The notes beneath the pieces are model-generated. The model was not told where the DNA came from and made no database searches. It saw nothing but the letters and a program-made list of their open reading frames with translations. Shown here one piece after another: positions 1-21,167 of a stretch of 64,000 nt of DNA (position 1 is the first letter of the stretch; every line of letters starts with the position of its first letter). The translations under genes and the position numbers were made by a program. The DNA comes from Escherichia coli (GTDB lineage: Bacteria > Pseudomonadota > Gammaproteobacteria > Enterobacterales > Enterobacteriaceae), in assembly GCF_041886205.1 (NCBI RefSeq), contig NZ_CP169029.1. The stretch is one strand, 5' to 3'.

Positions 1-238
1 CATGTTCATGGCAATGATCAGGTAGCTATAAGTACGTTTGAAATGAACATGTTTGATTTCCGTCGTGATAATATAGGAAAAAGTATGCAATCCGGGTTAG
101 ATAAAAAAACTGCTCCTGCAGGAATCATAATGTAATAAATATTAGATATTTTTATATTAGAGGTGAGGAGATGGCGTCACCTCTAATATTTTCGCTGATT
201 GTATTTAGCATCAAATAATAAAGGTACAATTAATTTAA

Positions 239-424
239 GTGACTATCATGAAAAAATTAGTTCCGCCATATCAAGTAACCCCGGCACAAATCTATCGTTC
301 CGTTGCCAGTTCTACAGCCATTGAAACCGGAAAACCCGTGCAAGAAATTGAGCGACAGCTCAAACGTAACCGAACGCTGGCGAAGAACGTCGGCCTCGCC
401 AGCAAATCCAGAGATCCGATTTAA
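239..424 (+). CDS. Hypothetical small protein (61 aa), convergent with integrase
   Basis: ORF in six-frame track; no recognisable family; AT-rich context. Confidence 0.25.
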   Translation: MTIMKKLVPPYQVTPAQIYRSVASSTAIETGKPVQEIERQLKRNRTLAKNVGLASKSRDPI

Positions 425-428
425 GCCT

Positions 429-1736
429 CTATCTCTGCCCAAACAGGTTAACGACATTGTTTTCCTGCTGTTGCTGGTGGTTATTCACCCGAGACTCCCA
501 GATCTCGAGAGCCTTACGCTTTTCAACCAGGTAATCGTAACGATCGTAGTGTTTAGAACTCACATCCTGTAGAGCATGGTTCTGAATGCGGTCACGCAGG
601 TCTTTAGCAATACCCGCTTCGCCCATCAGGGTCTTACAGGTACGACGAATATCACGCGCAATAAAAGATGGGCTCAACGCAAAGTGTTGCCGGTAATAAA
701 TGATGGCTTGTGCAAAGCTGTCTGTGCGTAGATGCTGTTCCGGTTTAATACGCTGCGGGAAGATGTAAGGACTCTGACTATGATTCTCAGCTTTCAACTT
801 TTCGAGTATCTCAATGGCTGACTCAGTCAAAGGCACCAGATGATCCCTTTTATTTTTCGACACATCCGCCACTATCAATAACGTTTTTTCTTCCCAGTTA
901 ACGGCATCCCAACGGCTGGAAACCAGTTCATGAGGCCGCTGGCCACCCGTATAGACACACAAGTTAAGCAATTGGCTGATTAACGGGCCGACCTTTGGTG
1001 CTTTAGGGAAATCCCCCATCAGTTGCTGCAACTCATCCAGCTTCAGCCAGTTTGTCCCTGCCTTCTCCGCTGCAGATTGTTTGGGTATGACACTCACTGG
1101 GTTCATTTGAAGCCCAAACATCACGTTCTGCTGGTGGTTTGCCGGATCGTTGTCAGCCTTCAACCCATAATTGAATGCTGCCATCAGATAAGAGCGAACA
1201 CGATTTGCTTCAACTGATGCGCCACGTTTAATAATGGTGGCCAGAATTTGTTTGATATGAGCGGGGATAACGTCACGCGCTTTCGTCGCTTTAGGTATAA
1301 ATGGATAGGTTTCTTTTTCCAGCCGGTACAAAACCTGTTGCCAGGTGCGTTTACCGTCTTCACGCATTTTGGTGGTGTAACCCAAAATGAGTTGCTCAAT
1401 GCTGCCTTTGAGCTGGTCTTCACGTTGTTGTTGTTCGGCAGAGAAAAGCTGCTCTGCGATTTCAGCTTTGGGGTCTTTCCCTTCTTTAAGAAGACCCGCA
1501 TGTTCTTTACATTGCTGTCTTGCCTGCGCGAGTGACAACTCTGGGAAACGGCCAAGCAGAATGAATTGCCGTTTTCCTTGCCAAAAATAACGATAGTAAA
1601 ATACTCGCTGACCCGATGGCTCAACTTTCACCCCTAATCGCCCTGCCCCACGCTCACCACTTTTATCCCATTCATAATAAGCAGTAGTCTTCGGCTTCAA
1701 GCCACTAATCATTGAGACAGTTAAATTATCAGCCAT
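429..1736 (-). CDS. int: Tyrosine recombinase / phage integrase, P4 family (start probably Met at 1736; longest ORF extends to 1838)
   Basis: N-terminal arm-binding-like segment (FYYRYFWQGKRQFILLGRFPELSLAQARQQ) and C-terminal catalytic region ending HYDRYDY with conserved R/H/R/Y pattern. Confidence 0.8.
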   Translation of the reverse strand: MADNLTVSMISGLKPKTTAYYEWDKSGERGAGRLGVKVEPSGQRVFYYRYFWQGKRQFILLGRFPELSLAQARQQCKEHAGLLKEGKDPKAEIAEQLFSAEQQQREDQLKGSIEQLILGYTTKMREDGKRTWQQVLYRLEKETYPFIPKATKARDVIPAHIKQILATIIKRGASVEANRVRSYLMAAFNYGLKADNDPANHQQNVMFGLQMNPVSVIPKQSAAEKAGTNWLKLDELQQLMGDFPKAPKVGPLISQLLNLCVYTGGQRPHELVSSRWDAVNWEEKTLLIVADVSKNKRDHLVPLTESAIEILEKLKAENHSQSPYIFPQRIKPEQHLRTDSFAQAIIYYRQHFALSPSFIARDIRRTCKTLMGEAGIAKDLRDRIQNHALQDVSSKHYDRYDYLVEKRKALEIWESRVNNHQQQQENNVVNLFGQR

Positions 1737-1930
1737 AGTATTTTTCAGTCCTTTGTTCGTTACGTCACCCAGTCTGATTCTGGGTGACGTAGTGGGTGAC
1801 GTAAGGATGATACTGAAGGTAAAAACGCAGAACAACATGAAACAACAACCAGCAAATAACCTACTGTTATTTATTAAATTTAATCTAACGTGAAAAAAGA
1901 TGCAAAATCATGAAACATGGATTTCATATG

Positions 1931-1976
1931 ACTCATAATCGCTTGGTCGCTGGTTCAAGTCCAGCAGGGGCCACCA
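1931..1976 (+). other. Partial tRNA-Ile(CAU) gene, 3' half only (anticodon loop to CCA); att-site-like remnant
   Basis: ACTCATAATCGCTTGGTCGCTGGTTCAAGTCCAGCAGGGGCCACCA matches the ileX/ileY-type tRNA from the anticodon loop onward; upstream bases do not match the 5' half. Confidence 0.65.
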
Positions 1977-2731
1977 AATCATCATTCATGTATCAGGAAG
2001 AGTTAAGGGTACAAGGGGTACTCGATGGCGGTCTATATTTCACGATTAACGCCATTTCAAGGAAGAAGTGCGGTGGGTGGTTTCGAATGAGGGCTGGTGT
2101 TTTGGTACGTGGCATGCCACTGCAATGTATTTATCCATCAGTACTCATTCAAAAGTACCTGGAAAAAATGCCCGCTATGCCAAGCGGGCAAATTGCTTAC
2201 ATGTGGAATTAAGTAATTAACGATAAAGCCAGAGTATTATCATTTATCATGCCTCTTCATTTAATCAGGTTAATTACTCAAATCACTGAACTATTCTCTG
2301 TTCGCTTACTGATGATAAGTGAAGTGTCACAACCACGATTTGTATGTGGACCAATGCCGTAGAGTAAGGATGAAATGTCTCTGCCACGCATTAAACATCT
2401 ACTACTGACCAGAACACCCGCCGCAGGCAGATGAGTCTTGTGAGTATTACAGAAGCATGGCTATGCTCATTAACCAACTCTAATAGATATAAATTCCTAA
2501 CACTCGAAAAACGAATTTCACTAATAAGTCATAACGGGTGATTTTTATCATACAGCGAAATAACCTTTTGTTTATTAAATTTAACATTCTTGTGCTTATT
2601 TAATTAAAAATTCCATGCGTAGCATGTGAAACAGTTAATGTCAGCAAATGTCTCAAATGAGCGATTTTTTATAGTGACAAACAGTAATAACGTTAAAAAT
2701 AGCCATGAAGACATTAACTGAGGAATAGACA

Positions 2732-4081
2732 ATGTTAGTTAGTAAAAGCAACGAATTTAACACTAGCGCAGTTTTGGCTAGCAGGAATTATAATGAAAAC
2801 AATTCTTCCAACCCCATGGGGCTACTAGCTTATAGTATTTTAAATTTAATTTGTAAGGAAGCTGCCTCAGGGACGTACAACGGTGCTATTGAAATTTTAC
2901 AAAAAATGATGTCTGAATGTAAATATCAAGAAGGCAACGCCTTTGTCATTATGGGATCTGGAGAACAATTAAAACGTATTAAATATGATGTTGATGAAAA
3001 TAACTTAAAAGTATTCAACGTACACTTTAATAATAATGAAGAGTTAGTTACTGATGGTGAGCCTGACGTAGTATGTTTAAGCAAGCAGGAGTGGGAAAAT
3101 CTTCTCATTAAATTAAAACCGGAGATTAAAGAAAATGTGTTTTCTGAAAATAACAAATCATCGAGAGAAAATAATGTTGATCAGTATGTTCAATCCGCTA
3201 AAAGAAATGAACAGGCCCTTTTCGATAATATAATAAAAAGTGATTTTCATGTTGCTTCACTTCAGCCAGGTAGTACGCGTAGTGTTATTTCAGAAACGCC
3301 ACGAAATGTCTGTATGGAACCACGTAATTCCTATGAAACCAAAATAGATGAGATTTCATCTTTGTCAGAGTCAAAGGAACACTCCATAGATATTCAAGAA
3401 AAAACAGATGCGTTTGTGAATGAGTTCAAGGGGATATTATTTGATAAAAATGGAACGTCTTCAGAGTTTCTACTTAATTTTTATGAATGTTGCTATGAGT
3501 TTTTACCAAGAGCGCAGCCTCAGGATAAAATCGATAGCTATAATTCAGCACTGCAAGCTTTTTCCATCTTTTGTTCATCTACGTTGACACATAATAATAT
3601 AGGCTTTGATTTCAAATTATTTCCAGAAGTCAAGCTGTCTAGAGAACATCTTGAAACGGTATTCAAATACAAAAATGGCGATGATGTCCGGGAGATAGCC
3701 AAAATTAACATTACTCTCCAAAAAGAAGAGGGTGGTTTATATAATTTACGTGGATTAGATTTTAAGGGATGCTTCTTTTCTGGACAGAACTTCAGTAACT
3801 ATGATATTCAATATGTGAACTGGGGAACGTCATTGTTTGATCTTGATACTCCATGTATTTTTAATGCGCCTGCTTACAACAAGAGTAATGAAAAATCATT
3901 AGAACGCGTCAGCGAAAACGGTTTAAGTGGAGTCTTGTCTGATCGTAATAAAAAAATAAAACTCATCACGGGCGTGGCACCATTCGATGATATTTTATTT
4001 ATGGATGACGACTTTGATGATAGTTCCTCTGAGGATGATCCCGTTGAGAATAGTCCTGTTGTGACTAGTCCCCTTGTATAA
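2732..4081 (+). CDS. AT-rich hypothetical protein, ypjC-like, with pentapeptide-repeat-like segment near C-terminus
   Basis: 449-aa ORF, low GC, Asn/Ser-rich; segment NLRGLDFKGCFFSGQNFSNYDIQYVNW resembles pentapeptide repeats; position matches ypjC of K-12. Confidence 0.55.
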   Translation: MLVSKSNEFNTSAVLASRNYNENNSSNPMGLLAYSILNLICKEAASGTYNGAIEILQKMMSECKYQEGNAFVIMGSGEQLKRIKYDVDENNLKVFNVHFNNNEELVTDGEPDVVCLSKQEWENLLIKLKPEIKENVFSENNKSSRENNVDQYVQSAKRNEQALFDNIIKSDFHVASLQPGSTRSVISETPRNVCMEPRNSYETKIDEISSLSESKEHSIDIQEKTDAFVNEFKGILFDKNGTSSEFLLNFYECCYEFLPRAQPQDKIDSYNSALQAFSIFCSSTLTHNNIGFDFKLFPEVKLSREHLETVFKYKNGDDVREIAKINITLQKEEGGLYNLRGLDFKGCFFSGQNFSNYDIQYVNWGTSLFDLDTPCIFNAPAYNKSNEKSLERVSENGLSGVLSDRNKKIKLITGVAPFDDILFMDDDFDDSSSEDDPVENSPVVTSPLV

Positions 4082-4389
4082 AGTTCTAAAAGCAGTTTTC
4101 AATGATAAATAAATGGCTATTTTTACGAAGAGATAATAACGTAGATTGAAACAATATGTATTATTGATTGAGTAAACGGGATTATTATTCACACTACATC
4201 CATTTTAGTGTCACTACCAAAGAAAAAGGGGCTACGTTTTCATGTAACCCCTTGATTTATTTGGTGGGCTGGCAGTGACTGAATTGGTGCTGTAATTGGT
4301 TGAAATATTTCATCTAATGTCTGGTTTAACTTTCCTTAGCTGCCTGAAAGTTTTTTGATCTCACCCAGCAATAACAGCGTTACGGTGCA

Positions 4390-4680
4390 CCACGACTGAC
4401 TGAAGAACTGCGTGCTCAGGGTTACCACTTCAACGTAAAACCGTGGCAGGAGGTCCGGACTGAAAAAACTGCTCAGGACATTATCGGCAGGGTACGCACT
4501 GGTAGTCTGTAAACTGAACCGACTGGGGCGCAGTATGTGGCATCTTGTCGTGCTGTTGGAGGAGCTGTGCGAACGTGGTATTAACTTTCGTGCTCTGGCC
4601 CAATCTATATTTGCCCAACAATGGGGGGACGGAAGCTGTAAAAGTAAAACAATCTGCGATCTCAGAGTTATTGTGTGATT
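4390..4680 (+). pseudogene. pinH: Serine invertase (Pin/Hin family) fragment, pinH-like pseudogene
   Basis: Translation KLNRLGRSMWHLVVLLEELCERGINFRALAQSI matches the resolvase/invertase catalytic-domain core; frameshifted upstream, no intact N-terminus or HTH. Confidence 0.7.
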
Positions 4681-5007
4681 TTTATGTGAGCAGAAGATAT
4701 TCATCAGAAACGATTATGTAAATCATTTTATTTTGCCGACTGCCTGATTGTCGAAAGAAAAGAATACGCCCGGGTTTCCTGAATAGATTGACTTTTTTAT
4801 CCAACCACACTTCAGCGCACTGCGTTTAAAAAATGCCTCATTCTTATGCGGAATATCATCATTTCATCATGATGTCTTTGATGAGCGGTGAACACAATAC
4901 ACTTGCGCTGTCTCTTCAGGATGAATCCCCTGGTCTGGTGCCTGTGGGCTGATGTTGCAGCAAAGCTAAGGTCGCTTAAACGCTACTCAGTATTCACTTT
5001 TCAGAGG

Positions 5008-8000
5008 ATGAAATTTATGAACAGGACCAGTCCCTATTATTTTCGCCGCTCAGTACTTTCCTTATTGATATCTGCCCTGATATATGCTCCGCCCGGGATG
5101 GCGGCCTTTACTACTAATGTTATTGGTGTGGTAAATGATGAGACTGTAGATGGCAACCAACGAGTAGATGAACGAGGTACAACAAATAACACTCATATTA
5201 TCAACCATGGCCAGCAGAGTGTTTATGGCGGAGTATCTAATGGAAGTATTATTGAATCGGGTGGATATCAAGATGTTGGAAGGAATAACAATTATATGGG
5301 GCAGTCTAATAATACAACCATTAACGGAGGAAGACAGACAATTCATGACGGGGGCATTTCCACCGGTACGATAATCGACAGTGGCAATCAGGACGTTTAT
5401 ACAGGTGGTATCAGCAATGGAACGACAATTAAGGGTGGTAATTCACACATAAGTGGGGGGACTGCGAATGGAACAATCATTGATGGTGGCAGCCAACGAG
5501 TAACAACGCAGGGGCATGTTGACAGTACAACGATAAATAAGTCTGGCTCTCAGGACATCACGCAAGGAAGTCTGGCGACGAACACAATCATAAATGGTGG
5601 ACGACAGTATGTTGAACAGAGCACAGTAGGAACAACCACCATTAAAAATGGCGGTGAGCAAAGAGTATATGAAAGCCATGCGCTGGACACGACGATTGAA
5701 GGTGGAACTCAGTCTCTGAATAATAAGTCAACGGCAAAAAATACTCAGATCTATTCTGGTGGTACGCAAATTGTTGATAACACCAGCACCTCGGATGTTA
5801 TTGAAGTTTATTCCGGTGGCGTGCTTGATGTTAGTGGTGGTACGGCAACAAATGTTACCCAGCACGATGGTGCAATTTTAAAAACAAACACTAACGGTAC
5901 GACGGTGAACGGTACGAATAGTGAAGGTGCATTCTCCATCCACAATCACGTGGCAGACAATGTGTTGCTGGAAAACGGTGGTCATTTAGACATAAACGCA
6001 TATGGTTCGGCAAACAAGACTATTATCAAAGATAAAGGAACAATGTCAGTTTTAACCAATGCTAAAGCTGATGCGACCCGAATAGATAACGGCGGGGTAA
6101 TGGATGTTGCCGGAAACGCGACCAATACCATAATTAATGGTGGCACACAGAATATTAATAATTATGGCATAGCCACGGGAACCAATATCAACAGCGGAAC
6201 GCAAAATATCAAGAGCGGCGGGAAAGCTGACACGACAATTATATCCTCCGGGAGCCGGCAGGTTGTTGAGAAAGATGGTACGGCAACTGGCAGCAATATT
6301 AGCGCCGGAGGCTCGCTGATTGTCTATACCGGCGGTATTGCACATGGGGTTAACCAGGAGACGGGCAGTGCTTTAGTTGCCAACACGGGTGCAGGGACTG
6401 ATATCGAAGGATACAACAAGCTCTCTCACTTCACTATTACCGGAGGGGAGGCTAATTATGTTGTGCTGGAAAATACCGGCGAACTGACGGTAGTGGCTAA
6501 AACCTCGGCGAAAAATACTACCATTGATACTGGCGGTAAGCTGATTGTCCAGAAGGAGGCTAAAACAGATAGCACCAGACTTAATAATGGCGGCGTTCTG
6601 GAGGTTCAGGACGGTGGTGAGGCTAAGCATGTTGAGCAACAATCCGGCGGCGCATTAATTGCTTCCACGACCTCCGGAACACTTATCGAAGGAACCAACA
6701 GTTATGGTGATGCTTTCTACATCAGGAATTCAGAAGCTAAAAATGTAGTGCTGGAAAACGCTGGCTCATTAACAGTCGTCACTGGTTCCCGGGCAGTTGA
6801 TACGATTATTAATGCCAATGGCAAAATGGATGTTTATGGAAAAGATGTTGGCACTGTACTTAATAGTGCTGGCACCCAAACAATATATGCCAGTGCCACT
6901 TCTGATAAAGCAAATATCAAAGGTGGCAAGCAAACGGTATATGGTTTAGCCACTGAAGCAAATATCGAAAGTGGTGAACAAATTGTTGATGGTGGGTCAA
7001 CAGAGAAAACACACATCAATGGTGGCACGCAAATCGTTCAGAATTATGGTAAGGCAATCAATACCGATATCGTCTCTGGCCTACAACAAATTATGGCAAA
7101 CGGGACAGCGGAAGGTTCCATTATTAATGGGGGTTCACAGGTAGTTAATGAGGGCGGTCTGGCTGAAAACTCGGTGCTTAATGACGGCGGCACACTCGAT
7201 GTGCGGGAGAAAGGCAGCGCAACGGGGATACAGCAGAGTAGCCAGGGCGCTTTGGTTGCAACCACCAGGGCGACGCGGGTCACAGGAACACGCGCGGATG
7301 GCGTCGCGTTCAGCATCGAGCAGGGTGCGGCGAACAATATCCTGCTGGCAAATGGCGGCGTGTTAACCGTGGAGTCAGACACCTCTTCTGACAAAACACA
7401 GGTCAATATGGGCGGACGGGAGATCGTCAAAACAAAAGCCACTGCGACAGGCACGACGCTCACCGGCGGTGAACAAATTGTCGAGGGTGTGGCGAATGAG
7501 ACAACAATTAACGACGGCGGAATACAAACAGTTTCAGCTAACGGAGAGGCAATAAAAACAAAGATCAATGAAGGCGGTACGCTGACAGTCAACGATAATG
7601 GCAAAGCGACAGATATCGTCCAGAACAGCGGTGCCGCTCTCCAGACGAGCACGGCTAACGGTATTGAAATCAGCGGTACTCACCAGTACGGTACTTTTTC
7701 CATTTCCGGCAATTTAGCGACCAATATGTTGCTGGAAAATGGCGGTAATTTATTGGTATTAGCAGGTACCGAAGCTCGCGACTCCACGGTTGGCAAGGGT
7801 GGGGCAATGCAAAACCTGGGTCAGGACTCCGCCACAAAGGTTAACTCTGGCGGGCAATATACCCTTGGGCGGTCAAAAGATGAGTTTCAGGCTCTGGCCC
7901 GGGCAGAAGATCTCCAGGTCGCTGGCGGTACGGCAATCGTCTACGCAGGTACGCTGGCGGATGCATCGGTCAGTGGCGCGACAGGAAGCCTGTCGTTAAT

Positions 8001-9597
8001 GACGCCACGGGATAATGTTACGCCAGTTAAACTCGAAGGGGCGGTCCGGATTACCGATAGCGCGACATTGACTCTGGGAAATGGCGTCGATACCACGCTT
8101 GCCGACCTGACGGCTGCCAGCCGGGGCAGTGTCTGGCTTAACAGCAATAATTCCTGTGCAGGTACCAGCAACTGCGAATATAGAGTAAACAGTTTGCTAC
8201 TCAACGACGGTGATGTTTATTTGTCAGCACAAACAGCAGCGCCTGCCACAACTAACGGTATCTACAATACGCTGACAACCAATGAACTTTCCGGTAGCGG
8301 TAATTTCTACCTGCATACCAACGTTGCAGGCTCCCGGGGCGATCAACTGGTCGTCAACAACAACGCCACTGGTAATTTTAAAATCTTTGTTCAGGATACC
8401 GGCGTCAGCCCACAGTCTGACGACGCGATGACGCTGGTGAAAACAGGGGGAGGGGATGCTTCGTTTACGCTGGGCAATACCGGCGGTTTCGTTGATCTTG
8501 GGACCTATGAGTATGTCCTGAAAAGTGACGGCAACAGCAACTGGAACCTGACCAATGATGTCAAACCCAACCCGGACCCCATCCCAAATCCAAAGCCAGA
8601 CCCAAAACCCGATCCAAAGCCAGACCCAAATCCAAAACCAGACCCTACTCCCGATCCAACGCCGACACCCGTTCCGGAGAAACGCATTACGCCTTCTACG
8701 GCAGCCGTACTCAATATGGCAGCAACATTACCGTTGGTATTTGATGCTGAGCTAAACAGTATTCGCGAGCGGTTGAACATAATGAAAGCGAGTCCACACA
8801 ACAATAATGTCTGGGGGGCGACGTATAACACCCGTAATAATGTCACCACCGATGCGGGTGCCGGGTTTGAGCAGACGCTGACCGGAATGACAGTGGGGAT
8901 CGACAGCCGTAATGATATTCCTGAAGGAATTACCACGCTAGGCGCTTTTATGGGCTATTCCCATTCACATATCGGTTTTGATCGCGGAGGACATGGCAGT
9001 GTGGGCAGTTATTCTCTGGGCGGCTATGCCAGTTGGGAACATGAAAGTGGTTTCTATCTGGACGGTGTCGTGAAGCTGAACCGTTTTAAAAGTAACGTAG
9101 CAGGTAAAATGAGCAGCGGTGGAGCCGCCAATGGCAGTTACCACAGCAACGGGCTGGGCGGTCACATTGAAACCGGGATGCGATTTACCGATGGTAACTG
9201 GAACCTGACGCCGTATGCATCGTTAACGGGGTTCACCGCTGATAACCCCGAATATCATTTATCCAATGGCATGGAATCGAAATCAGTCGATACCCGCAGT
9301 ATATATCGTGAACTGGGTGCAACGCTGAGTTACAACATGCGTCTGGGGAACGGTATGGAAGTTGAGCCGTGGCTGAAGGCGGCTGTGCGCAAAGAATTTG
9401 TCGATGATAACCGGGTGAAGGTGAATAATGACGGTAATTTCGTCAATGATTTGTCGGGCAGACGTGGAATATACCAGGCAGGTATTAAAGCCTCATTCAG
9501 TAGTACGTTAAGCGGGCATCTCGGGGTGGGGTATAGCCATGGTGCCGGTGTGGAATCACCGTGGAACGCGGTGGCTGGTGTGAACTGGTCGTTCTGA
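5008..9597 (+). CDS. ypjA: Large adhesin-like autotransporter (ypjA-like); start assigned to the signal-peptide Met, ORF opens at 4888
   Basis: Signal peptide (MKFMNRTSPYYFRRSVLSLLISALIYAPPGMAA), long passenger of about 19-residue Gly/Thr/Asn-rich repeats, Pro-Asp-Lys linker, C-terminal beta-barrel ending VNWSF. Confidence 0.85.
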   Translation: MKFMNRTSPYYFRRSVLSLLISALIYAPPGMAAFTTNVIGVVNDETVDGNQRVDERGTTNNTHIINHGQQSVYGGVSNGSIIESGGYQDVGRNNNYMGQSNNTTINGGRQTIHDGGISTGTIIDSGNQDVYTGGISNGTTIKGGNSHISGGTANGTIIDGGSQRVTTQGHVDSTTINKSGSQDITQGSLATNTIINGGRQYVEQSTVGTTTIKNGGEQRVYESHALDTTIEGGTQSLNNKSTAKNTQIYSGGTQIVDNTSTSDVIEVYSGGVLDVSGGTATNVTQHDGAILKTNTNGTTVNGTNSEGAFSIHNHVADNVLLENGGHLDINAYGSANKTIIKDKGTMSVLTNAKADATRIDNGGVMDVAGNATNTIINGGTQNINNYGIATGTNINSGTQNIKSGGKADTTIISSGSRQVVEKDGTATGSNISAGGSLIVYTGGIAHGVNQETGSALVANTGAGTDIEGYNKLSHFTITGGEANYVVLENTGELTVVAKTSAKNTTIDTGGKLIVQKEAKTDSTRLNNGGVLEVQDGGEAKHVEQQSGGALIASTTSGTLIEGTNSYGDAFYIRNSEAKNVVLENAGSLTVVTGSRAVDTIINANGKMDVYGKDVGTVLNSAGTQTIYASATSDKANIKGGKQTVYGLATEANIESGEQIVDGGSTEKTHINGGTQIVQNYGKAINTDIVSGLQQIMANGTAEGSIINGGSQVVNEGGLAENSVLNDGGTLDVREKGSATGIQQSSQGALVATTRATRVTGTRADGVAFSIEQGAANNILLANGGVLTVESDTSSDKTQVNMGGREIVKTKATATGTTLTGGEQIVEGVANETTINDGGIQTVSANGEAIKTKINEGGTLTVNDNGKATDIVQNSGAALQTSTANGIEISGTHQYGTFSISGNLATNMLLENGGNLLVLAGTEARDSTVGKGGAMQNLGQDSATKVNSGGQYTLGRSKDEFQALARAEDLQVAGGTAIVYAGTLADASVSGATGSLSLMTPRDNVTPVKLEGAVRITDSATLTLGNGVDTTLADLTAASRGSVWLNSNNSCAGTSNCEYRVNSLLLNDGDVYLSAQTAAPATTNGIYNTLTTNELSGSGNFYLHTNVAGSRGDQLVVNNNATGNFKIFVQDTGVSPQSDDAMTLVKTGGGDASFTLGNTGGFVDLGTYEYVLKSDGNSNWNLTNDVKPNPDPIPNPKPDPKPDPKPDPNPKPDPTPDPTPTPVPEKRITPSTAAVLNMAATLPLVFDAELNSIRERLNIMKASPHNNNVWGATYNTRNNVTTDAGAGFEQTLTGMTVGIDSRNDIPEGITTLGAFMGYSHSHIGFDRGGHGSVGSYSLGGYASWEHESGFYLDGVVKLNRFKSNVAGKMSSGGAANGSYHSNGLGGHIETGMRFTDGNWNLTPYASLTGFTADNPEYHLSNGMESKSVDTRSIYRELGATLSYNMRLGNGMEVEPWLKAAVRKEFVDDNRVKVNNDGNFVNDLSGRRGIYQAGIKASFSSTLSGHLGVGYSHGAGVESPWNAVAGVNWSF

Positions 9598-9607
9598 CCA
9601 TCAACGA

Positions 9608-9630
9608 AAAAGCCCACATCTGTGGGCTTT
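9608..9630 (+). terminator. Hairpin downstream of ypjA (AAAGCCCACA-tctg-TGTGGGCTTT)
   Basis: Perfect 10-bp inverted repeat 11 nt after the stop codon; weak U-tract. Confidence 0.4.
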
Positions 9631-9760
9631 CATGTTACCAGGAGCCGCGGCTCTTTTGCGTATCCTGTTTTGTCTCCTCACCGTCTGGTCGGTGTCCTGC
9701 TGAGGCTGCTAACTTCCTGTTTTTGTTGGTGTTGTCCTTACACCGTCCAATCATGATTGG

Positions 9761-9771
9761 GCTGGCGGAGT
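9761..9771. other. Putative distal att core (imperfect repeat of ssrA 3' end)
   Basis: GCTGGCGGAGT resembles GCTGGCGGGAGT at the tmRNA 3' end (window 21340-21351); short and imperfect. Confidence 0.3.
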
Positions 9772-9825
9772 CTGAATAACATTTGCAACATAATGTTTTT
9801 ATTGTTTATTTTCCAATTCAACTTT

Positions 9826-9853
9826 CATTGGTATACCTAAGCGTATACCAATG
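9826..9853. repeat. Inverted repeat CATTGGTATAC-ctaagc-GTATACCAATG; candidate integrase arm-type site
   Basis: Perfect 11-bp arms; near-identical motif recurs at 21199-21223 at the opposite end of the element. Confidence 0.5.
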
Positions 9854-9937
9854 GCGATTTGTTGCAATGATTCCTGTGGTTAAGCGAACTTGTTGTTGAA
9901 TAGCTCACATCAAGAAAAAAACTTTTTTTACGGAAAA

Positions 9938-10030
9938 CTGTTCACACTGTTCACTCGCCATTATTTGTCTTTAATTTCAATGTGATATACGGTGAATAGT
10001 CCGTGAACAGTGAACACTTTACTGTTCACT
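9938..10030. repeat. Cluster of TGTTCAC iterons (P4 ori-like, alpha-binding type)
   Basis: At least five copies of TGTTCAC/GTGAACA in both orientations just downstream of the alpha gene. Confidence 0.6.
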
Positions 10031-10040
10031 TTCCGGGATT

Positions 10041-10070
10041 TCAGGTAAAAAAAGACCGGCTGATGCCGGT
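10041..10070 (-). terminator. Rho-independent terminator downstream of alpha
   Basis: On minus strand GACCGGCATCAGCCGGTC hairpin followed by TTTTTTT. Confidence 0.55.
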
Positions 10071-10079
10071 CCGGGTAGG

Positions 10080-12413
10080 TTATGTCGCGGTGGTTTCGTC
10101 GCACCGGGGCAGCCAGTCGGCGTTGCTTTCCTCCCTGAGCGCAAGGTTCGTCTGCATCCCCTGATTTGTTCGCCGCCTGGCGTAATTCAGCCCGTACTCT
10201 TTCAGCATCGATGACAGCCCTTTGCCGAACATGGTCAGGCTGAGGGTGTTCTTGTAGCCGTGCGCCTCCATGTAAACCAGATAGGCGTGATACAGGTACA
10301 GGCGCGGCTGTCGCGGGATGATATTCGCATTCCCCATGTACATACCGTCAGGCTCGGGCAGCGCCTCCAGATAGCCACAAAAATCGAATGTCGGGTCAGC
10401 GTCGCGCTTGATGCTGAGTGCCTCGTCGGAGTTCTGCTGCGACTGGAGCAGTGTGCGCGCGGTCATCGGGTCGCTGAACGTCTGCATAAGCTGACGCACG
10501 ATGACGGCCAGCTCGCGGGCAATTTTATCTTTCAGCTTCGGGTCACGCTCCTCCGGGGCAATCTGTTCCGGGAAGTGCATTATCACCCGGCGACGCGACA
10601 CGCCGCCGCTGCGGTCGGTGAAGCGCATCGGATTGTTGTTTACGGCCAGTATCACCGCCGGAATATGGGTGGAGTACGCATCGCGGTATTTCGGGTCAAC
10701 CGAGACCGCATCCCCGCCGGTGATGGCCTTGAGTCCTGCCCCGTCACCGCTCCATTTCTCCTGGTCAGGCAGACGTATCAGCGAGAAGCCAATCAGCGCC
10801 GCGCGCTCGCGGGGGGATTCCAGCGTTTCGATAGTCGCTGACGTGGCGTTATCTTCCCCGGCGAGCATGGTCGCTATTTCGGCCAGAATACTTTTCCCGC
10901 TGCCACCGGGACCGGTCACTTCGAGGAAGAGCTGCCAGTCGTAGCGGTTCGCCAGCACCATAAACAGCGCGGCGAGTATCACGTCACGTTTATCGGCACG
11001 CGAACCGGCGGCGCGGTCGAGCCAGCGCCAGAAATTCGGCGCGTGCGTCTCCAGCGTTTCCCCCTCCACCGGCGGGGTGAAATCCACGTCGCACAGGGTG
11101 CGCAGCCAGTGCGTTTTGCTGTGCGGGCTGAATATACCGGTACTGGTATCAAGCACGCCGTTGCGAAAGCCAATCAGCCGCCGTGGCGGGGCATCCTGCT
11201 GCGGAATAATCAGTTTCAGGGTGTCCACCACCGAGGCAATTTTCCCCGACGAAAACGGGGCGCGCAGACGCTGGAACAGCCCGGCCACGTCGCGCGCAAA
11301 GTCTGACGGCGGAATGATTTTCCATATACCGGCTTCATAGCGGGACAGGAGCTGCCCGTTCGCATCCACCGCCAGCGCTTCGCCGTAATGCTCATGCACC
11401 CGCATGGCTTTCTCACTGGTGCTCATGGCGGTAAATTCCGCCTCGCTCATGGTAGAGAAAGGGCTTTCAGCCGGTGGCCGGATGGCGTCATACATGGCTT
11501 TACGCGTGGCCTCCCCACCGTGCTGTGTATACGCATCATTCCAGTCACCGAACACCGGCGGCAGGGCGACCACGCCCTCACAGGACTCTGCGGCCGCAGA
11601 CGCTTTGGTCTGGCCGTCGCCGTTAAGGTCACGGTCGGCGGCAATGACAATCCGGCAGGCCGGGTATTTGTGACGGGCAAGGCTCGCCAGAGAAAGGAGG
11701 TTCACCGACGACAGCGCCACCATGACGGTTTCGCCGGTCAGGTGATGCACGGTGAGCGCGGTCGCGTAGCCCTCCGCTATCCACAGCCGTTTTCCCGCCT
11801 CTTTTTTCCCGTCGAGAATATGACATGTCCCTTTTACCTGCCCCCCTTTCAGGGTGCGCTTGAGACCGTCCGCGTTAATGAGCTGGACGTTAACCAGTGC
11901 GCCGCTATCGTCATACAGCGGGACAACCACATCCCCGGCACGGTACGTCACACCGCCGGTTTTGTGCATGGCCGTCAGTACCTGACATTCCCGGCCGGGA
12001 AAGCCCTTGCGGGTGAGGTAGGCGTTGCCGGTGGCCGGTTGGGTTTTCTCCATCAGTCTGGCGGCCAGCGCGGCCGCCGCTTTGCGGTCGGCCTCCGTTT
12101 CAGCGTCTGCGGCCGCAGTCACCGCCGGGGATACCGGAGGCAGGTTGCCGGTCACGGCGTTCACCTTCCCGGCCGCCTCTGACGGGGTCACGCCGAACAC
12201 TTTCTCAACCAGTTTCAGACCGTCCCCCGCGCCGCACTGGTTACAGAACCACGTCCCGCGTCCCTCCTTATCGTCAAAGCGAAAGCGGTCGGAGCCGCCA
12301 CACACCGGACAGGCCTGATGACGGTTTTTGATGACCGTTACCCCCAGCGCCGGGAGAATGCGCGGCCAGTGGCCGCACGCCTGTTTCACGGTGTCCGTTA
12401 CGTTCATTTTCAT
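10080..12413 (-). CDS. P4 alpha-like primase-helicase (777 aa)
   Basis: N-terminal zinc-binding cysteine pairs (CPVCGG ... CNQCG), central primase region, Walker A (GPGGSGKS) helicase domain; size identical to P4 alpha. Confidence 0.9.
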   Translation of the reverse strand: MKMNVTDTVKQACGHWPRILPALGVTVIKNRHQACPVCGGSDRFRFDDKEGRGTWFCNQCGAGDGLKLVEKVFGVTPSEAAGKVNAVTGNLPPVSPAVTAAADAETEADRKAAAALAARLMEKTQPATGNAYLTRKGFPGRECQVLTAMHKTGGVTYRAGDVVVPLYDDSGALVNVQLINADGLKRTLKGGQVKGTCHILDGKKEAGKRLWIAEGYATALTVHHLTGETVMVALSSVNLLSLASLARHKYPACRIVIAADRDLNGDGQTKASAAAESCEGVVALPPVFGDWNDAYTQHGGEATRKAMYDAIRPPAESPFSTMSEAEFTAMSTSEKAMRVHEHYGEALAVDANGQLLSRYEAGIWKIIPPSDFARDVAGLFQRLRAPFSSGKIASVVDTLKLIIPQQDAPPRRLIGFRNGVLDTSTGIFSPHSKTHWLRTLCDVDFTPPVEGETLETHAPNFWRWLDRAAGSRADKRDVILAALFMVLANRYDWQLFLEVTGPGGSGKSILAEIATMLAGEDNATSATIETLESPRERAALIGFSLIRLPDQEKWSGDGAGLKAITGGDAVSVDPKYRDAYSTHIPAVILAVNNNPMRFTDRSGGVSRRRVIMHFPEQIAPEERDPKLKDKIARELAVIVRQLMQTFSDPMTARTLLQSQQNSDEALSIKRDADPTFDFCGYLEALPEPDGMYMGNANIIPRQPRLYLYHAYLVYMEAHGYKNTLSLTMFGKGLSSMLKEYGLNYARRRTNQGMQTNLALREESNADWLPRCDETTAT

Positions 12414-12424
12414 GGTGTTCTCCC

Positions 12425-12745
12425 TCAGTGCAGCGCCGGTGCGGTGATATGACGGGCGCAGAGTTCATCCATCACGGCCAGCCCGAGAAAGGACAGCGAC
12501 GGCGCGGCCTTGAGTGGTCCGGCTTCCATTAAATCTTCGAGCAGGGCACAGGCAATCTGACGGCCTTTTTCCTCGCCATGCTGGCGCAGGTAGAAGCCCT
12601 CCAGCTCGGTCGCAATGGCGCTTTCCAGCGTACTGAGCGTGAGCTGCGGGTAGCGGTGCTGACGTTCGCACAGGGTCAGCCATGCACAGGCCACGGCGCG
12701 GCGATAGAGCGCGGCGCGTAAGACGGGCGTTAATGGCTTTTTCAT
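12425..12745 (-). CDS. Hypothetical protein (106 aa), satellite left operon
   Basis: ORF abutting the alpha start in the same operon. Confidence 0.45.
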
Positions 12746-13002
12746 ACGTTGCGCTCCCCGGCCAGCCAGCGCTGATTGCAGCGTTCGACCACACCTTCAA
12801 GCCGGGCGGTCATGAGGTAAATCACCGAGGTGAGCTGTAGCTGCTGCGCCGGATTGTGGCGCAAAGAGGTGCAGTCCTGCACCTGCATCAGTTCGCCGAC
12901 GAGCTGGCCGACGTTGCGAAGATGTTCGAGGCATTCGAGGTCTGCCCGGCTGATGGTGGGCTGGTTTATATTCTGCGACCGTTCCGTACTGTTAACAGGC
13001 AT
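12742..13002 (-). CDS. Hypothetical protein (about 86 aa; start at Met with AGGAG upstream)
   Basis: ORF with Shine-Dalgarno-like AGGAG before ATG at 13002; 4-nt overlap with downstream gene. Confidence 0.4.
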
Positions 13003-13073
13003 TATTTCGTCTCCTGAGGACGTGCGTATCCCTGCGCAGATACGCACATTTTATTTTGGGGTGTCGTTTTTAA

Positions 13074-13523
13074 TTACAGATAACGGCGGTAGCTGTTATC
13101 CGGTTTTATTTCCGTTTCCAGCCTGAAATTATTCCGCCATTTATGCGCCACCGGCGCCGGGCGTTTAACCGGGGGAATATCATCAGGATAGTTATCGATA
13201 TTCCGCGCCCGGTATTGCTGTAATGCCGGGTCGGCCGCTATTTCGCGTAATACGGCGTGGCGGTTTTCAGGGTTGCGCTTAAATACATCGGGATGCTCAC
13301 AGGTAAAGTCCCGCAAAAAACGACTGAGCGGAATTTCTGCCATACGGCCACCGGCAATAATACGAATGAGGATGGTGTAGGTGCGCCGGTAAGGGTTCCA
13401 GACCAGCCCCGGACAGCGGTACGGCATATCCCACGGAATACCGTCGGCCAGCACGCCCGACACCACCACATCAGGAAATCCTGTACAGCGATATGTTTCG
13501 CCCGGCTGAGGGAAATCAAACAT
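13074..13523 (-). CDS. P4 orf151-like protein (149 aa)
   Basis: Position and size match P4 orf151 upstream of alpha; GGAGG before ATG. Confidence 0.5.
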   Translation of the reverse strand: MFDFPQPGETYRCTGFPDVVVSGVLADGIPWDMPYRCPGLVWNPYRRTYTILIRIIAGGRMAEIPLSRFLRDFTCEHPDVFKRNPENRHAVLREIAADPALQQYRARNIDNYPDDIPPVKRPAPVAHKWRNNFRLETEIKPDNSYRRYL

Positions 13524-13815
13524 GGTGCTCCCCTCCGTTTCCCGACGTCGTGGCGAGAAAGTCACGGCACAGGCCTTTGGCTTTCAGCTCTTCCAGGACG
13601 TAGCTGACGTCCTCATGGATATAACTAAAAATCTGCGGCAGGTATAGCTGGTGTAAACCGTTCAGCTCACGGCGCAGCAAATCTCCACCGATGAACTGCG
13701 AGACGGCGCTGGCGCGATTGAGTTTATGGTACGCCTCAATGCTGAGGTGTTCCTGCATGGGGTTAAGGTCATCACGACGCGCTGAGATGGTCTGAGGGGT
13801 GTTTTTATTATGCAT
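13516..13815 (-). CDS. Small protein (99 aa), position of P4 epsilon
   Basis: In-frame Met inside a longer ORF; overlaps neighbours by 8 nt; position equivalent to epsilon. Confidence 0.45.
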
Positions 13816-14005
13816 GTGACACCTCCACAACCGGCAGACGGGCGGCAAGGGAAAGCACGTATTCCCGGACAAGGGTGCGGCGGGCGGCCAGCTCGTCACC
13901 GGCCACGGTGCGGAGCATACAGATACGGGGTTTACGGTCTGCACGACGGACGGCGGCAAACACAAAGACAAACTGAGGGTGTGACGGGGTGAGGGTCGTA
14001 GCCAT
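13808..14005 (-). CDS. Small protein (65 aa), position of P4 kil/eta
   Basis: AGGAGG 7 nt upstream of ATG at 14005; overlaps downstream gene start. Confidence 0.35.
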
Positions 14006-14403
14006 AAGGCAACCTCCTTCGAGTAGCAAATTATTGCTATCGCCGGAGTTCTCACGCTCAGTGGCGATAGCCCAGACGGGGGTGAGAATACCGGCCTCGA
14101 AGAATACCGGCCAGCCCGAGGGCTGCCCCGCCTGAGCTACCATTGACATGACAGCATGATATGCGATTGCGGACAGGAGACACAAAGTGACGTCTGCACG
14201 ACGATCCGCACACCACGCCATTATCTGGCGCTCTGTGGCGTTAGTTGCGACACAAAAAAAGACGCATGGCGCGTCTGGTGTCGCCTTCGAGTTACTCGGG
14301 TTCTCACGCCCGGTTACCGATTTTGCGGCAACAGCAAAACTGTACCAGGAAACACACAACGGATGCAAGCCAGAAAAAGGGGCTTTGTGAAATCGGCTCT
14401 GAT

Positions 14404-14670
14404 TCATGCGTCGTATTTCCGGTTGCGGTGCGCGACACGTTCTTCCATCCATGCCGTGATTTCAGACTGTAGCCAGGCGACATTTTTACCCCCGAGGGAA
14501 ACCTGCGCCGGGAAAGCGTTACGGGCGATTAAATCGTAGAGCGTGGAGCGGGACAGGCCGCACTGATGAATGACTTCCGGGAGACGTAAAAAACGTTCCT
14601 GAGTCGGGGCTGAAACCGGCATCGGGTGCGCGGCAGTGGGGGACGGTGGTGCTGATGAAACTGTGTGCAT
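14404..14670 (-). CDS. Vis/AlpA-family transcriptional regulator (start may be internal Met at 14622)
   Basis: [28 protein letters not shown] is an AlpA-type HTH; 88 aa as for P4 Vis; divergent from sid. Confidence 0.7.
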
Positions 14671-14944
14671 AACGCTACCTCGTTAATATCCGCAGAGATC
14701 CGGACGTATCCGTCCGGTATCAGGTAGCGCTCTATTTTGTGAATATTTTTCTTCAATGCAACAGAGGCATGTTGTGTCGTGGAGCAGTTTTGTCTGTTAT
14801 TTAAGCAGCGACCTGAAAATATGAAAAATAATTGGCACATGACGCGCTGAGACGTTCATAAATCACAGTCAATTGATATCGCCTATCAATAGATAAAAAT
14901 ATAATTATTAAAACAATGACTCTCTAAAAGGAGCTTGCCGAAAC

Positions 14945-15050
14945 CAGTGAACAGTAGTGAACAGTTGGTGAACACTTTTCTCTCAACTGTTCACTCTTTA
15001 ATTTATTGTTTTATTTATATTTTTATACTGAGTGAACAGTAGTGAATAGT
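14945..15050. repeat. Second TGTTCAC iteron cluster in the divergent vis/sid control region (crr-like)
   Basis: Six copies of GTGAACA/TGTTCAC in an AT-rich intergenic region about 5 kb from the first cluster. Confidence 0.5.
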
Positions 15051-15218
15051 TATATGTAAAAAAACAAATAGAGTGAGGGGTTTTCCTGCGACCTTTCTCT
15101 GGCCAGCCGGGTTTTTAAGTCCTGTTTGTGCCATGTCTGCGACAACGGCAATGAATCGAGTTGTTGTCTGAGGGACGGCAGAATGGCGTCAGGTTGAAAA
15201 CACAGAGAGAACCCGACG

Positions 15219-16261: not shown

Positions 16262-16277
16262 TTCAGGAGAAAAGACA

Positions 16278-16853: not shown

Positions 16854-17017
16854 AACGCCCCGAAAATACCCGTCTTTTTAATAAAAATAGCCATGCATGC
16901 CTACGCTGCATGGCTTTGCATGCAAAAACCTGAATTTTCCACACCCCGCCGCACCAGCACTGGCGCGGCCTGAGTCCCTTCATGCGCCTGCATTAAAAGT
17001 GCCCCACGAAGCGGGCA

Positions 17018-17036
17018 GGCGTGGCGGGGAGAGCAT
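17018..17036. other. cos-like cohesive-end site
   Basis: GGCGTGGCGGGGAGAGCAT matches 16 of 19 positions of the P2/P4 cohesive end as I recall it; lies after psu as in integrated P4. Confidence 0.45.
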
Positions 17037-21148: not shown

Positions 21149-21167
21149 TGTGGCCGCTCCTTCATGA

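What the first reader, a model, noticed from the sequence alone, without database searches (positions are those of the whole stretch)
1..1976. Second P4-family integrase abutting a 3' half of tRNA-Ile(CAU): edge of another integrative element
Positions 1931-1976 reproduce the 3' 46 nt of an ileX/ileY-type tRNA (anticodon loop CUCAUAA through CCA) but the preceding bases do not form the 5' half, so this is a duplicated att-type remnant rather than a gene. A 435-aa tyrosine recombinase ends about 200 bp away, transcribed away from it. The element body and the intact tRNA should lie upstream of the window; the ypjC/pinH/ypjA side is the original downstream flank.
Basis: partly seen in the sequence, partly recalled or inferred. 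Interest (0 to 1): 0.5.

Follow-up and report, generated by a model that had tools for sequence, protein, structure and literature searches.

The report
Defence island end at tRNA-Ile gene

Summary

- **tRNA remnant:** Window 1930-1976 is the exact 3' 47 nt of tRNA-Ile(CAU) ileY, with no 5' half.
- **Integrase:** A 435-aa tyrosine integrase (429-1736, minus strand) starts 193 bp away and is transcribed away from the remnant.
- **Upstream proxy:** Window 1-11,736 is 100% identical to a public E. coli contig. That contig has an intact ileY 20,056 bp upstream, next to the native amylase/glaH/gab flank.
- **Cargo:** The island carries Drt1a (its last 44 codons are window 1-135), a type I restriction-modification system, McrBC, and an AlpA/YfjJ-type backbone.
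- **Empty site:** Strain 6EVA has the unoccupied site, which fits the attB/attL/attR pattern exactly.
- **Mobility:** The same island, at least 99.95% identical, sits at ileX in a host whose rpoD is at most 90.9% identical to E. coli. This indicates recent transfer between genera.
- **Arm sites:** Five copies of TGGGTGACGTA flank the tRNA block, in the same layout as phage P4 attP.
- **Mirrored layout:** The tRNA block has the opposite polarity to P4, so int lies beside the remnant rather than the intact gene. Relatives in Pantoea, Yersinia and Vibrio share this, including one at the published VPaI-1 site.

The kind of element is already known and this one is a new member of it. Interest is low to moderate.

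The parts
1..135 (+). Last 44 codons plus stop of the island's Drt1a gene (reverse transcriptase-nitrilase, 1274 aa in full)
   Evidence: The translation of window 1-135 is identical to the C-terminus of the 1274-aa ORF at L004:11602-15426. That ORF matches PADLOC Drt1a over its full length at 1396 bits.
154..189 (+). Perfect 13-bp hairpin followed by a T-run, probably the terminator of the Drt1a gene
   Evidence: the repeat finder pair I6: arms 154-166 and 177-189, 100% complementary, followed by TTTTCGC. Its function is inferred.
248..424 (+). 58-aa ORF conserved in the island; no family match
   Evidence: It is called as a gene in nearly all copies of the island. It has no NCBIfam, PADLOC or PHROG match.
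429..1736 (-). 435-aa tyrosine integrase of the tRNA-Ile(CAU)-targeting clade
   Evidence: Pfam finds Arm-DNA-bind_3, Phage_int_M and Phage_integrase, and the protein matches phrog_1 integrase. The exact protein is carried on many NCBI contigs. Catalytic R267, K294/296, R364, H387 and Y397 are conserved, with Arg in place of the His of the H-x-x-R box.
1737..1929 (.). Integrase-side arm of the attachment site (element DNA), AT-rich
   Evidence: It is identical (0-1 mismatch) in seven copies of the element from at least four different host flanks, and diverged but alignable in L012, whose integrase is the 97%-identical P0001. It is unrelated to the sequence upstream of an intact ileY.
1761..1803 (.). 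Three copies of the 11-mer TGGGTGACGTA (1761-1771 inverted; 1781-1791 and 1793-1803 direct), presumed arm-type integrase-binding sites
   Evidence: Two more tandem copies lie 58-81 bp beyond the tRNA at the island's far end (L025 8706-8729). Number, orientation and spacing match the annotated attP arm repeats of phage P4. Relatives keep the layout with their own repeat sequences.
1930..1976 (+). attR identity block: the displaced native 3' 47 nt of tRNA-Ile(CAU) ileY, tRNA positions 30-76
   Evidence: The block is repeated 20,056 bp upstream inside the intact tRNA in the identical contig.
1977..4081 (+). Native chromosomal flank downstream of ileY, including an intact ypjCB gene (2732-4081)
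   Evidence: It is 100% identical to strain 6EVA, where it follows the intact tRNA directly. NCBIfam YpjCB scores 939 bits.

Best explanation
Window 1-1976 is the right-hand (attR) end of a roughly 20-kb integrative genomic island inserted in the tRNA-Ile(CAU) gene ileY of an E. coli chromosome.

How it inserts. The island's integrase recombines an attachment site on the excised circular form with the tRNA gene. The island carries its own copy of tRNA positions 30-76 plus a terminator hairpin, so a complete tRNA gene is rebuilt at the far (attL) end. The native 3' 47 nt are pushed about 20 kb away and remain as the remnant at 1930-1976. The integrase probably binds the five TGGGTGACGTA arm sites through its N-terminal arm-binding domain. 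It probably exchanges strands near the anticodon loop. A 67-aa AlpA-family protein at the other end is the likely excision factor.

What it carries. The cargo is anti-phage defence: Drt1a, a type I restriction-modification system and McrBC.

What is unusual. Compared with P4, the tRNA segment lies in the opposite polarity relative to int and the arm sites. As a result int ends up beside the remnant rather than beside the intact gene. The whole integrase clade shares this layout.

Shown versus inferred. Shown: the anatomy, the far end in an identical contig, the empty site, and insertion at two loci in hosts of different genera. Inferred: arm-site binding, the crossover position, the role of AlpA, present-day activity, and the state of the window's own upstream sequence.
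For: - Remnant and breakpoint.
- Integrase domains and catalytic residues.
- Proxy contig: window 1-11,736 is 100% identical to L004. The same contig (L025) has an intact tRNA at 8573-8648, next to the amylase/glaH/lhgO/gabDT flank.
- Island boundaries and composition: the 47-bp block (50 bp exact) is repeated 20,056 bp apart. The island is 45.2% GC against about 49-50% for the flanks.
- att-site relationships: attL matches attB on the left and attR matches attB on the right.
- Mobility: the same junction is joined to at least four different flanks. The island is 99.95-100% identical across hosts, while the neighbouring rpoD in an ileX-context host is at most 90.9% identical to any E. coli. 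Names attached to the identical protein include Citrobacter braakii and freundii, Salmonella and 'MULTISPECIES Enterobacteriaceae'.
- Arm repeats and P4 attP.
- Clade-wide layout.
- Cargo: PADLOC, NCBIfam and PHROG matches.
Against: - The window does not contain the far end. In other genomes the island has been rearranged: int and the RT gene are lost next to an IS1 in L017/L024, and the cargo is replaced in L006/L027. A related island in LHM10-1 has no annotated intact ileY nearby. The window's own copy could therefore be truncated upstream.
- No excised (attP) junction was found in the viral or metagenome contig collections, so current excision activity is not shown.
- The crossover position is ambiguous. 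L040 versus L041 place it 5' of tRNA position 50, but the hybrid T stem in L038 would fit a T-loop crossover.
- The His of the H-x-x-R box is Arg in this clade. The effect on catalysis is unknown.
Confidence: 0.9

Rival explanations
1. The remnant is a decayed or IS-truncated ileY, with its 5' half removed by a deletion, and an unrelated integrase gene happens to lie next to it. On this reading it is not an att site.
For: IS-mediated loss of ileY is documented in E. coli W and B (PMC3032704). In LHM10-1 an IS1 has truncated the neighbouring amylase gene and no intact ileY is annotated nearby.
Against: - The breakpoint at tRNA position 30 and the adjoining arm are identical in copies joined to at least four unrelated host flanks.
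- The same boundary (position 29/30) recurs in relatives only 54-58% identical.
- The block is a direct repeat of the intact tRNA 20,056 bp away.
- No IS sequence is present in window 1-1976.
Confidence: 0.02
2. The element is the end of a P4-like satellite prophage, packaged with a helper phage's capsids, rather than a non-phage genomic island.
For: The integrase has the P4-type domain architecture, and the arm-site layout matches P4 attP. An AlpA/Vis-like regulator and a YagK/YfjJ protein with a faint inovirus Gp2-type replication-initiator domain are present. The window also holds a P4-like element at ssrA with a 777-aa P4-family primase.
Against: None of the 12 island genes matches P4 alpha primase, sid, delta, psu or any capsid or terminase function. 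The backbone has no match in 50,697 phage records, and the closest phage integrase is 41% identical. The 264-aa ORF is unrelated to P4 cII. The attP junction is absent from IMG/VR viral contigs.
Confidence: 0.1
3. The island is a fixed, immobile remnant. The integrase is inactive (Arg replaces the conserved His), and the copies in other genomes reflect transfer by general recombination of large chromosome segments rather than site-specific integration.
For: No attP junction was found. VPaI-1, at the same site in Vibrio, gave no circular intermediates by inverse PCR (PMC1464126). All clade members have R-D-[IL]-R instead of H-x-x-R.
Against: - The same island, at least 99.95% identical, occupies two different loci (ileY and ileX) in hosts whose housekeeping genes differ by about 9%.
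- The junctions are precise to the base at the tRNA block in every case. Only site-specific integration explains that.
- The integrase ORF is intact and 100% conserved across many assemblies.
- The Arg substitution is conserved across a clade that has plainly integrated many times.
Confidence: 0.05

Closest known systems
VPaI-1 of pandemic Vibrio parahaemolyticus, and the Vibrio 'tRNA-Met' hotspot that also holds VSP-II of V. cholerae and VVI-I of V. vulnificus (Hurley et al. 2006, PMC1464126)
   Same: - VPaI-1 has a P4-like integrase (VP0380) at the end opposite the intact CAU-anticodon tRNA, a 45-bp direct repeat, a size of about 24 kb, low GC and a type I restriction system.
- A 55%-identical integrase (P0063, L040) sits at that very site. 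The published VP0379 primers match its flank and give the published 589-bp product.
- L040 has the same arm-repeat layout and a tRNA block that starts at position 29.
   Different: The host genus, the cargo genes and the arm-repeat sequence (TAGTCAAGTAA) all differ. The L040 integrase is not VP0380 itself, since the VP0380 primers do not match. The paper calls the target tRNA-Met. I infer it is the tRNA-Ile2 type from its 85% match to ileY, including the acceptor stem.
Satellite phage P4 Int/attP, which integrates at leuX
   Same: - The integrase domain architecture is the same.
- The attP anatomy is the same: one inverted plus two tandem arm repeats between the int start and the core, and two tandem repeats about 55 bp beyond the core (against 25, 27).
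- The target is the 3' part of a tRNA gene, which the element restores.
   Different: - Protein identity is only 21%.
- The identity block is 47 bp from the anticodon stem onward, against 20 bp at the extreme 3' end in P4.
- The tRNA segment is inverted relative to int, so int is at attR.
- The H-x-x-R box reads R-x-x-R.
- There are no P4 replication or capsid-hijacking genes.
CP4-57-type island at ssrA (IntA, PRK09692 family), present in this same window at about 9.6-21.3 kb
   Same: It is an integrative element with an arm-binding tyrosine integrase, targeting the 3' end of a small RNA gene, with AlpA- and YfjJ-type backbone genes.
   Different: The ssrA-side integrase passes the PRK09692 cutoff (589.8 against 434 bits). 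The ileY-side one does not (95.4 bits), and the two are 28% identical. At ssrA, int lies directly downstream of the intact gene and is co-oriented with it.
Previously noted ileY- and ileX-associated elements in E. coli: the 'ileY-associated phage' of APEC O78 (PMC4313913) and the LAA island listed at ileX among other sites (PMC7545054). A paper on P2-like phage integrases (PMC3448106) also mentions ileY.
   Same: They use the same chromosomal target genes. A P2-like prophage lies in tandem with this island at the tRNA-Ile site in L028.
   Different: These are different elements with different integrases and cargo. The window's integrase DNA has no megablast match in 5,426 complete RefSeq E. 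coli genomes.

Membership tests
tRNA-gene-targeting integrative genomic island (Islander-type definition) | A displaced 3' fragment of the tRNA lies downstream of, and in the same orientation as, the intact gene | tested here: met
   The fragment is at window 1930-1976. The intact gene lies 20,056 bp upstream in the same orientation in the contig that is 100% identical to window 1-11,736. The intact copy lies outside the window itself.
tRNA-gene-targeting integrative genomic island (Islander-type definition) | A tyrosine integrase gene lies between the tRNA gene and its fragment | tested here: met
   Window 429-1736; Pfam PF13356, PF22022 and PF00589.
tRNA-gene-targeting integrative genomic island (Islander-type definition) | An unoccupied site exists in related genomes, and the junctions fit attB x attP recombination | tested here: met
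   Strain 6EVA has ileY followed directly by ypjCB. attL matches attB on the left and attR matches attB on the right.
tRNA-gene-targeting integrative genomic island (Islander-type definition) | Excision to a circular form (an attP junction) | tested here: not met
   An exact 78-nt attP junction pattern found nothing in viral contigs or metagenome contigs. This is a weak test, because assemblies rarely capture circles. An inverse PCR is needed.
P4-type (Arm-DNA-bind_3 / DUF4102) tyrosine integrases | N-terminal Arm-DNA-bind_3 domain plus a C-terminal Phage_integrase catalytic domain | tested here: met
   PF13356 E=2.1e-15; PF00589 E=1.2e-14.
P4-type (Arm-DNA-bind_3 / DUF4102) tyrosine integrases | The catalytic set R, K, H-x-x-R, H/W and Y | tested here: inconclusive
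   R267, K294/296, R364, H387 and Y397 are invariant in the alignment with P4 Int. The His of H-x-x-R is Arg (R361) in all five clade members.
P4-type (Arm-DNA-bind_3 / DUF4102) tyrosine integrases | Significant sequence similarity to P4 Int | tested here: met
   BLASTP gives 21% identity over about 400 aa, E=5e-10. The relationship is distant, and the NCBIfam PRK09692 score of 95.4 is far below the 434 cutoff.
P4-type (Arm-DNA-bind_3 / DUF4102) tyrosine integrases | The P4 layout, with the tRNA 3' end pointing toward int so that int adjoins the restored tRNA gene | tested here: not met
   In P4 the core reads ...GGCACCA toward int. Here the block reads away from int, and int adjoins the remnant.
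P4-like satellite phage | P4 alpha-type primase and the sid, delta and psu capsid-hijacking genes | tested here: not met
   No such Pfam, PHROG or NCBIfam hits were found among the island's 12 genes.
DRT type 1 defence system (cargo) | A single large protein with a reverse transcriptase domain fused to a C-terminal nitrilase-like domain, matching the Drt1a profile end to end | tested here: met
   PADLOC PDLC03745 Drt1a scores 1396 bits over residues 20-1272 of 1274, and RTasNitrilase scores 393 bits over 761-1272. Only the last 44 codons lie in the window. Anti-phage activity was not tested.
VPaI-1-type islands at the CAU-anticodon tRNA hotspot | A clade integrase at the end distal to the intact tRNA, with a direct repeat of about 45-47 bp of the tRNA 3' part | tested here: met
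   Integrase identity to the Vibrio member is 55%.

The most novel reading that the evidence does not exclude
The integrases at tRNA-Ile(CAU) form a distinct clade, from Vibrio to Enterobacteriaceae, with three consistent features:
- They use a P4-like attP arm architecture, but with the tRNA-derived segment inverted relative to int. Every member therefore places int next to the displaced fragment.
- They carry R-x-x-R instead of the canonical H-x-x-R catalytic box.
- They serve as a small swappable chassis, about 3.9 kb plus 2.3 kb of end sequences, for cargo that can be defence systems or a capsule locus.

If nobody has formally described this inverted geometry and active-site variant, it would be a new variant of tRNA-targeting integration modules. 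It would be of some use for island-finding software and for integrase engineering.
Probability: 0.3. Interest if true: 0.45.

Novelty: new member of a known kind. Interest (0 to 1): 0.3.

Why it matters
For annotation:
- The tRNA-like piece at 1930-1976 is an att remnant, not a gene.
- The 100-aa 'hypothetical protein' called across it in public assemblies is probably spurious.
- The first 1.9 kb of the window is foreign DNA belonging to a defence island.

For biology:
- It documents a very recently spreading 20-kb island carrying DRT1, a type I restriction-modification system and McrBC.
- The island moves between genera of Enterobacteriaceae (names attached to the identical integrase include Citrobacter and Salmonella) and uses both tRNA-Ile2 genes.
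- It links the E. coli ileX/ileY hotspot to the well-known Vibrio 'tRNA-Met' island hotspot (VPaI-1) through one integrase clade.
- That clade has a consistent mirrored layout. Island-finding rules that expect int beside the intact tRNA should allow for it.

None of this overturns current understanding.

Tried and rejected
- **Source genome not found.** Megablast of window 1-1935 against 5,426 complete RefSeq E. coli genomes gave no match. The identical contig found (L004) cannot itself hold the whole window, because it ends about 45.7 kb into window coordinates.
- **No species-representative genome carries the arm.** An exact 48-mer of the arm and junction is absent from the 100,044 species-representative genomes, so host species could not be named that way.
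- **No excised form found.** The attP junction is absent from the viral and metagenome contig collections.
- **No known vehicle.** The backbone has no match in 72,556 plasmid records or 50,697 phage records.
- **264-aa ORF is not P4 cII.** It has the same length as P4 cII but no similarity.
- **Williams 2002 not available.** The paper on integration sublocations is not in the held library. Statements about the 'usual' int-next-to-tRNA layout therefore rest on P4, on the ssrA element in this window, and on my own recollection.
- **LHM10-1 is not a clean comparison.** It lacks an annotated intact ileY because of an IS1-associated rearrangement.
- **L040 is not VP0380.** The VP0380 primers do not match L040, so I could not equate that integrase with VP0380. 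Only the insertion site is shared.
- **Crossover not mapped.** The evidence from polymorphisms conflicts.
Full report

Yes.

ARAGORN finds only the tmRNA (21333-21695, minus strand) and a tRNA-Glu in the window, and nothing near 1.9 kb. I aligned window 1840-2010 with the intact, RefSeq-annotated tRNA-Ile of E. coli 6EVA (L001 5972-6047). The two are identical from 'GACTCATAATCG...' through CCACCA and on into the downstream flank, and unrelated before that point.

The shared tRNA part is window 1930-1976. Rfam gives only a sub-threshold partial tRNA hit there.

The neighbouring ORF (429-1736, minus strand; 435 aa from MADNL) has the Arm-DNA-bind_3, Phage_int_M and Phage_integrase domains. Its start codon is 193 bp from the remnant, and it is transcribed away from it.

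A first integrase of the same broad type lies at 19961-21148, beside ssrA. 'Second' is therefore apt.

**2. What lies upstream of the window?**

The integrase DNA has no megablast match in 5,426 complete RefSeq E. coli genomes. The exact protein, however, is carried on many NCBI contigs.

One of them, L004 (GCA_036252075.1), is 100% identical to window 1-11,736. I walked along that contig using its HsdS and YfjJ-like proteins and reached the far end, L025. There an intact CAU-anticodon tRNA sits at L025 8573-8648. ARAGORN calls it tRNA-Met, and its sequence is identical to ileY. It directly follows the amylase/glaH/lhgO/gabDT genes, which are the native upstream flank of ileY (compared).

I joined L004 and L025, which overlap exactly over 4,161 bp. 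In the joined sequence the 47-bp block (50 bp exact) is repeated 20,056 bp apart. The enclosed DNA is 45.2% GC, against about 49-50% for the flanks.

A three-way alignment of the empty site (6EVA), attL (L025) and attR (window) gives the textbook pattern. attL matches attB on the left, attR matches attB on the right, and all three share the block.

**3. Gene content**

In window orientation the island reads as follows:

| Feature | Strand | Notes |
|---|---|---|
| Intact tRNA | + | attL end |
| Island-supplied hairpin | . | Probable terminator (L025 8649-8696) |
| Two tandem TGGGTGACGTA repeats | . | |
| 264-aa ORF | + | No family match |
| 67-aa AlpA-family protein | + | phrog_66, 'excisionase and transcriptional regulator' |
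| 438-aa YagK/YfjJ-type protein | + | |
| 215-aa putative regulator | − | |
| McrC, McrB | − | |
| HsdR, HsdS, HsdM | − | Type I restriction-modification |
| Drt1a | + | 1274 aa; PADLOC 1396 bits, end to end |
| 58-aa ORF | + | Window 248-424 |
| int | − | Window 429-1736 |
| Three arm repeats | . | Window 1761-1803 |
| tRNA remnant | + | Window 1930-1976 |

Window 1-135 is the in-frame C-terminus of Drt1a. A perfect 13-bp hairpin follows at 154-189.

**4. Evidence that it moves**

The identical int-side arm plus block is joined to at least four different host flanks:
- the ypjCB/ypjA flank, as in the window (L004, L011, L016);
- two sequence variants of a flank next to a DUF1889 gene and a diol-dehydratase operon (L005, L008), and a third arrangement with T6SS/Tlde1 genes between that operon and int (L007);
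- a flank next to an Abi_C gene (L006).

In the non-ypjCB contexts the far end abuts rpsU-dnaG-rpoD-mug, which is the ileX locus.

The island is 99.95-100% identical in all of them. By contrast, the rpoD next to it in L026 is at most 90.9% identical to any of 5,425 E. coli genomes. Names attached to the identical integrase include 'MULTISPECIES Enterobacteriaceae', Citrobacter braakii and freundii, and Salmonella. This combination indicates recent site-specific spread between genera.

The island is sporadic:
- absent from complete RefSeq E. coli genomes;
- absent from all 100,044 species-representative genomes;
- absent from plasmid and phage records.

No excised attP junction was found in the contig collections.

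**5. Mechanism and comparison with P4**

P4's annotated attP has one inverted plus two tandem arm repeats between the int start codon and the core. It has two more tandem repeats about 55 bp beyond the core. The island has the same arrangement with its own 11-mer. The copies lie at 1761-1771 (inverted), 1781-1791 and 1793-1803, plus two copies 58-81 bp beyond the block at the far end.

The difference is polarity. In P4 the tRNA-derived core reads toward int. Here it reads away from int. As a consequence int lies beside the displaced remnant (attR), and the restored tRNA is at the other end.

This holds across the clade:
- the 58%-identical integrase of E. coli LHM10-1, also at ileY;
- the 58%-identical integrases P0017 (named Pantoea agglomerans) and P0015 (named Yersinia pseudotuberculosis);
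- the 55%-identical integrase P0063 (named Vibrio parahaemolyticus).

All of them show int, then lineage-specific arm repeats, then about 125 bp of spacer, then a tRNA-Ile2 3' block beginning at position 29 or 30, then host flank. None has an intact tRNA next to int.

The clade also has R-D-[IL]-R where P4 Int and the ssrA-side integrase have H-x-x-R. R267, K294/296, R364, H387 and Y397 are conserved.

The crossover point is inferred and not settled:
- The conserved block boundary favours the anticodon-loop region.
- So do the compensatory, host-specific T-stem variants in L040 and L041, which have identical element arms.
- An A49·C65 hybrid in L038 would instead fit a T-loop crossover, or a later mutation of the non-functional remnant.

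**6. What is known**

ileY and ileX are recorded insertion sites in E. coli.

The closest published relative in architecture is VPaI-1 of pandemic V. parahaemolyticus. It has a P4-like int (VP0380) at one end, the 'tRNA-Met' gene at the other, a 45-bp direct repeat, a size of 24 kb and a type I restriction system. No circular form was detected by inverse PCR (PMC1464126).

The published VP0379 primers match the flank of L040 and give the published 589-bp product. That clade member therefore sits at the VPaI-1 site, although its integrase is not VP0380.

The window's island is thus a new member of a known kind: a tRNA-targeting integrative island with a P4-type integrase and defence cargo. The mirrored polarity and the R-x-x-R box may not have been formally described, but I could not check this, because Williams 2002 is not held.

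**7. Verdict**

The minor corrections are 47 nt rather than 46, that the gene's start rather than its end is near the remnant, and that 'P4-family' holds only in the broad sense.

The main residual uncertainty is that the window's own upstream sequence is inferred from an identical contig. Rearranged copies exist elsewhere (L017/L024, L006/L027).

Interest is low to moderate.

Noticed in passing
window 9600-21700: A second integrative element lies between ypjA and ssrA. It has an integrase at 19961-21148 (minus strand; NCBIfam PRK09692, 589.8 bits) directly downstream of, and co-oriented with, the tmRNA gene (21333-21695). It also has a 777-aa P4-family primase at 10080-12413. This is a CP4-57/P4-like satellite-type element in the canonical int-next-to-target layout. 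L011 and LHM10-1 lack it; there ypjA adjoins ssrA.
   Followed up: partly
window 1910-2212: A 100-aa ORF starts in the island arm and reads through the tRNA remnant into the native flank. It is called as a gene or 'hypothetical protein' in public assemblies (L004 9525-9827; LHM10-1 WP_032314419.1). It matches no family and is probably an annotation artefact.
   Followed up: partly
L006 11602-21308 and L027 11317-21317 (CP095170.1): In this variant only the ends survive: about 3.9 kb with the 264-aa ORF, AlpA and the YfjJ-like gene, and about 2.3 kb with a truncated RT gene, the 58-aa ORF and int. The defence cargo is replaced by an IS (DDE_Tnp_1) and a capsule-synthesis/export cluster (Capsule_synth, Poly_export, ABC transporter). 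This suggests a small chassis with exchangeable cargo.
   Followed up: partly
L028 1-8600 (GCA_965285645.1): A P2/186-like prophage (Phage_GPA, CI repressor, Int_N integrase at 7495-8538) lies immediately left of the island, where the intact tRNA should be. ARAGORN finds no tRNA in that locus. This looks like a tandem array of two elements at the same tRNA-Ile site.
   Followed up: no
L002/L003 (E. coli LHM10-1, NZ_CP037903.1 1,133,000-1,157,900): A different island with a 58%-identical clade integrase occupies the same ileY breakpoint. No intact tRNA-Ile is annotated upstream. Instead an IS1 truncates the amylase gene, and pgaABCD, a GGDEF gene, an RtT sRNA hit and another integrase follow. 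That suggests an IS1-mediated rearrangement removed the attL end.
   Followed up: partly
integrase residue 361 (window about 654-656, minus strand): The His of the H-x-x-R catalytic box is Arg (A-R-D-[IL]-R-R-T) in all five tRNA-Ile-clade integrases examined. P4 Int and the window's ssrA-side integrase keep the His.
   Followed up: partly
L038 2257-2303; L011 about 9761-9807: There are single-base oddities in the displaced tRNA remnants. L038 has an A49·C65 mismatch in the T stem, and L011 has A67 instead of G67. These could mark the crossover position or be decay of a non-functional remnant.
   Followed up: no
window 2732-4081: ypjCB is an intact 449-aa ORF here (NCBIfam YpjCB, 939 bits). It is annotated as frameshifted in strain 6EVA. 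The downstream pin-like recombinase is only a fragment in the genomes examined.
   Followed up: no
L025 8649-8696: The island supplies a terminator-like hairpin immediately after the restored tRNA (AATAAAACAAGGACTTAG...CTAAGTCCTTTTTG). It resembles the native downstream hairpins of tRNA-Ile2 genes in other hosts, for example the L037 flank AATAAAACAAGGAGTTACG.... The captured tRNA segment may once have extended into the terminator.
   Followed up: no
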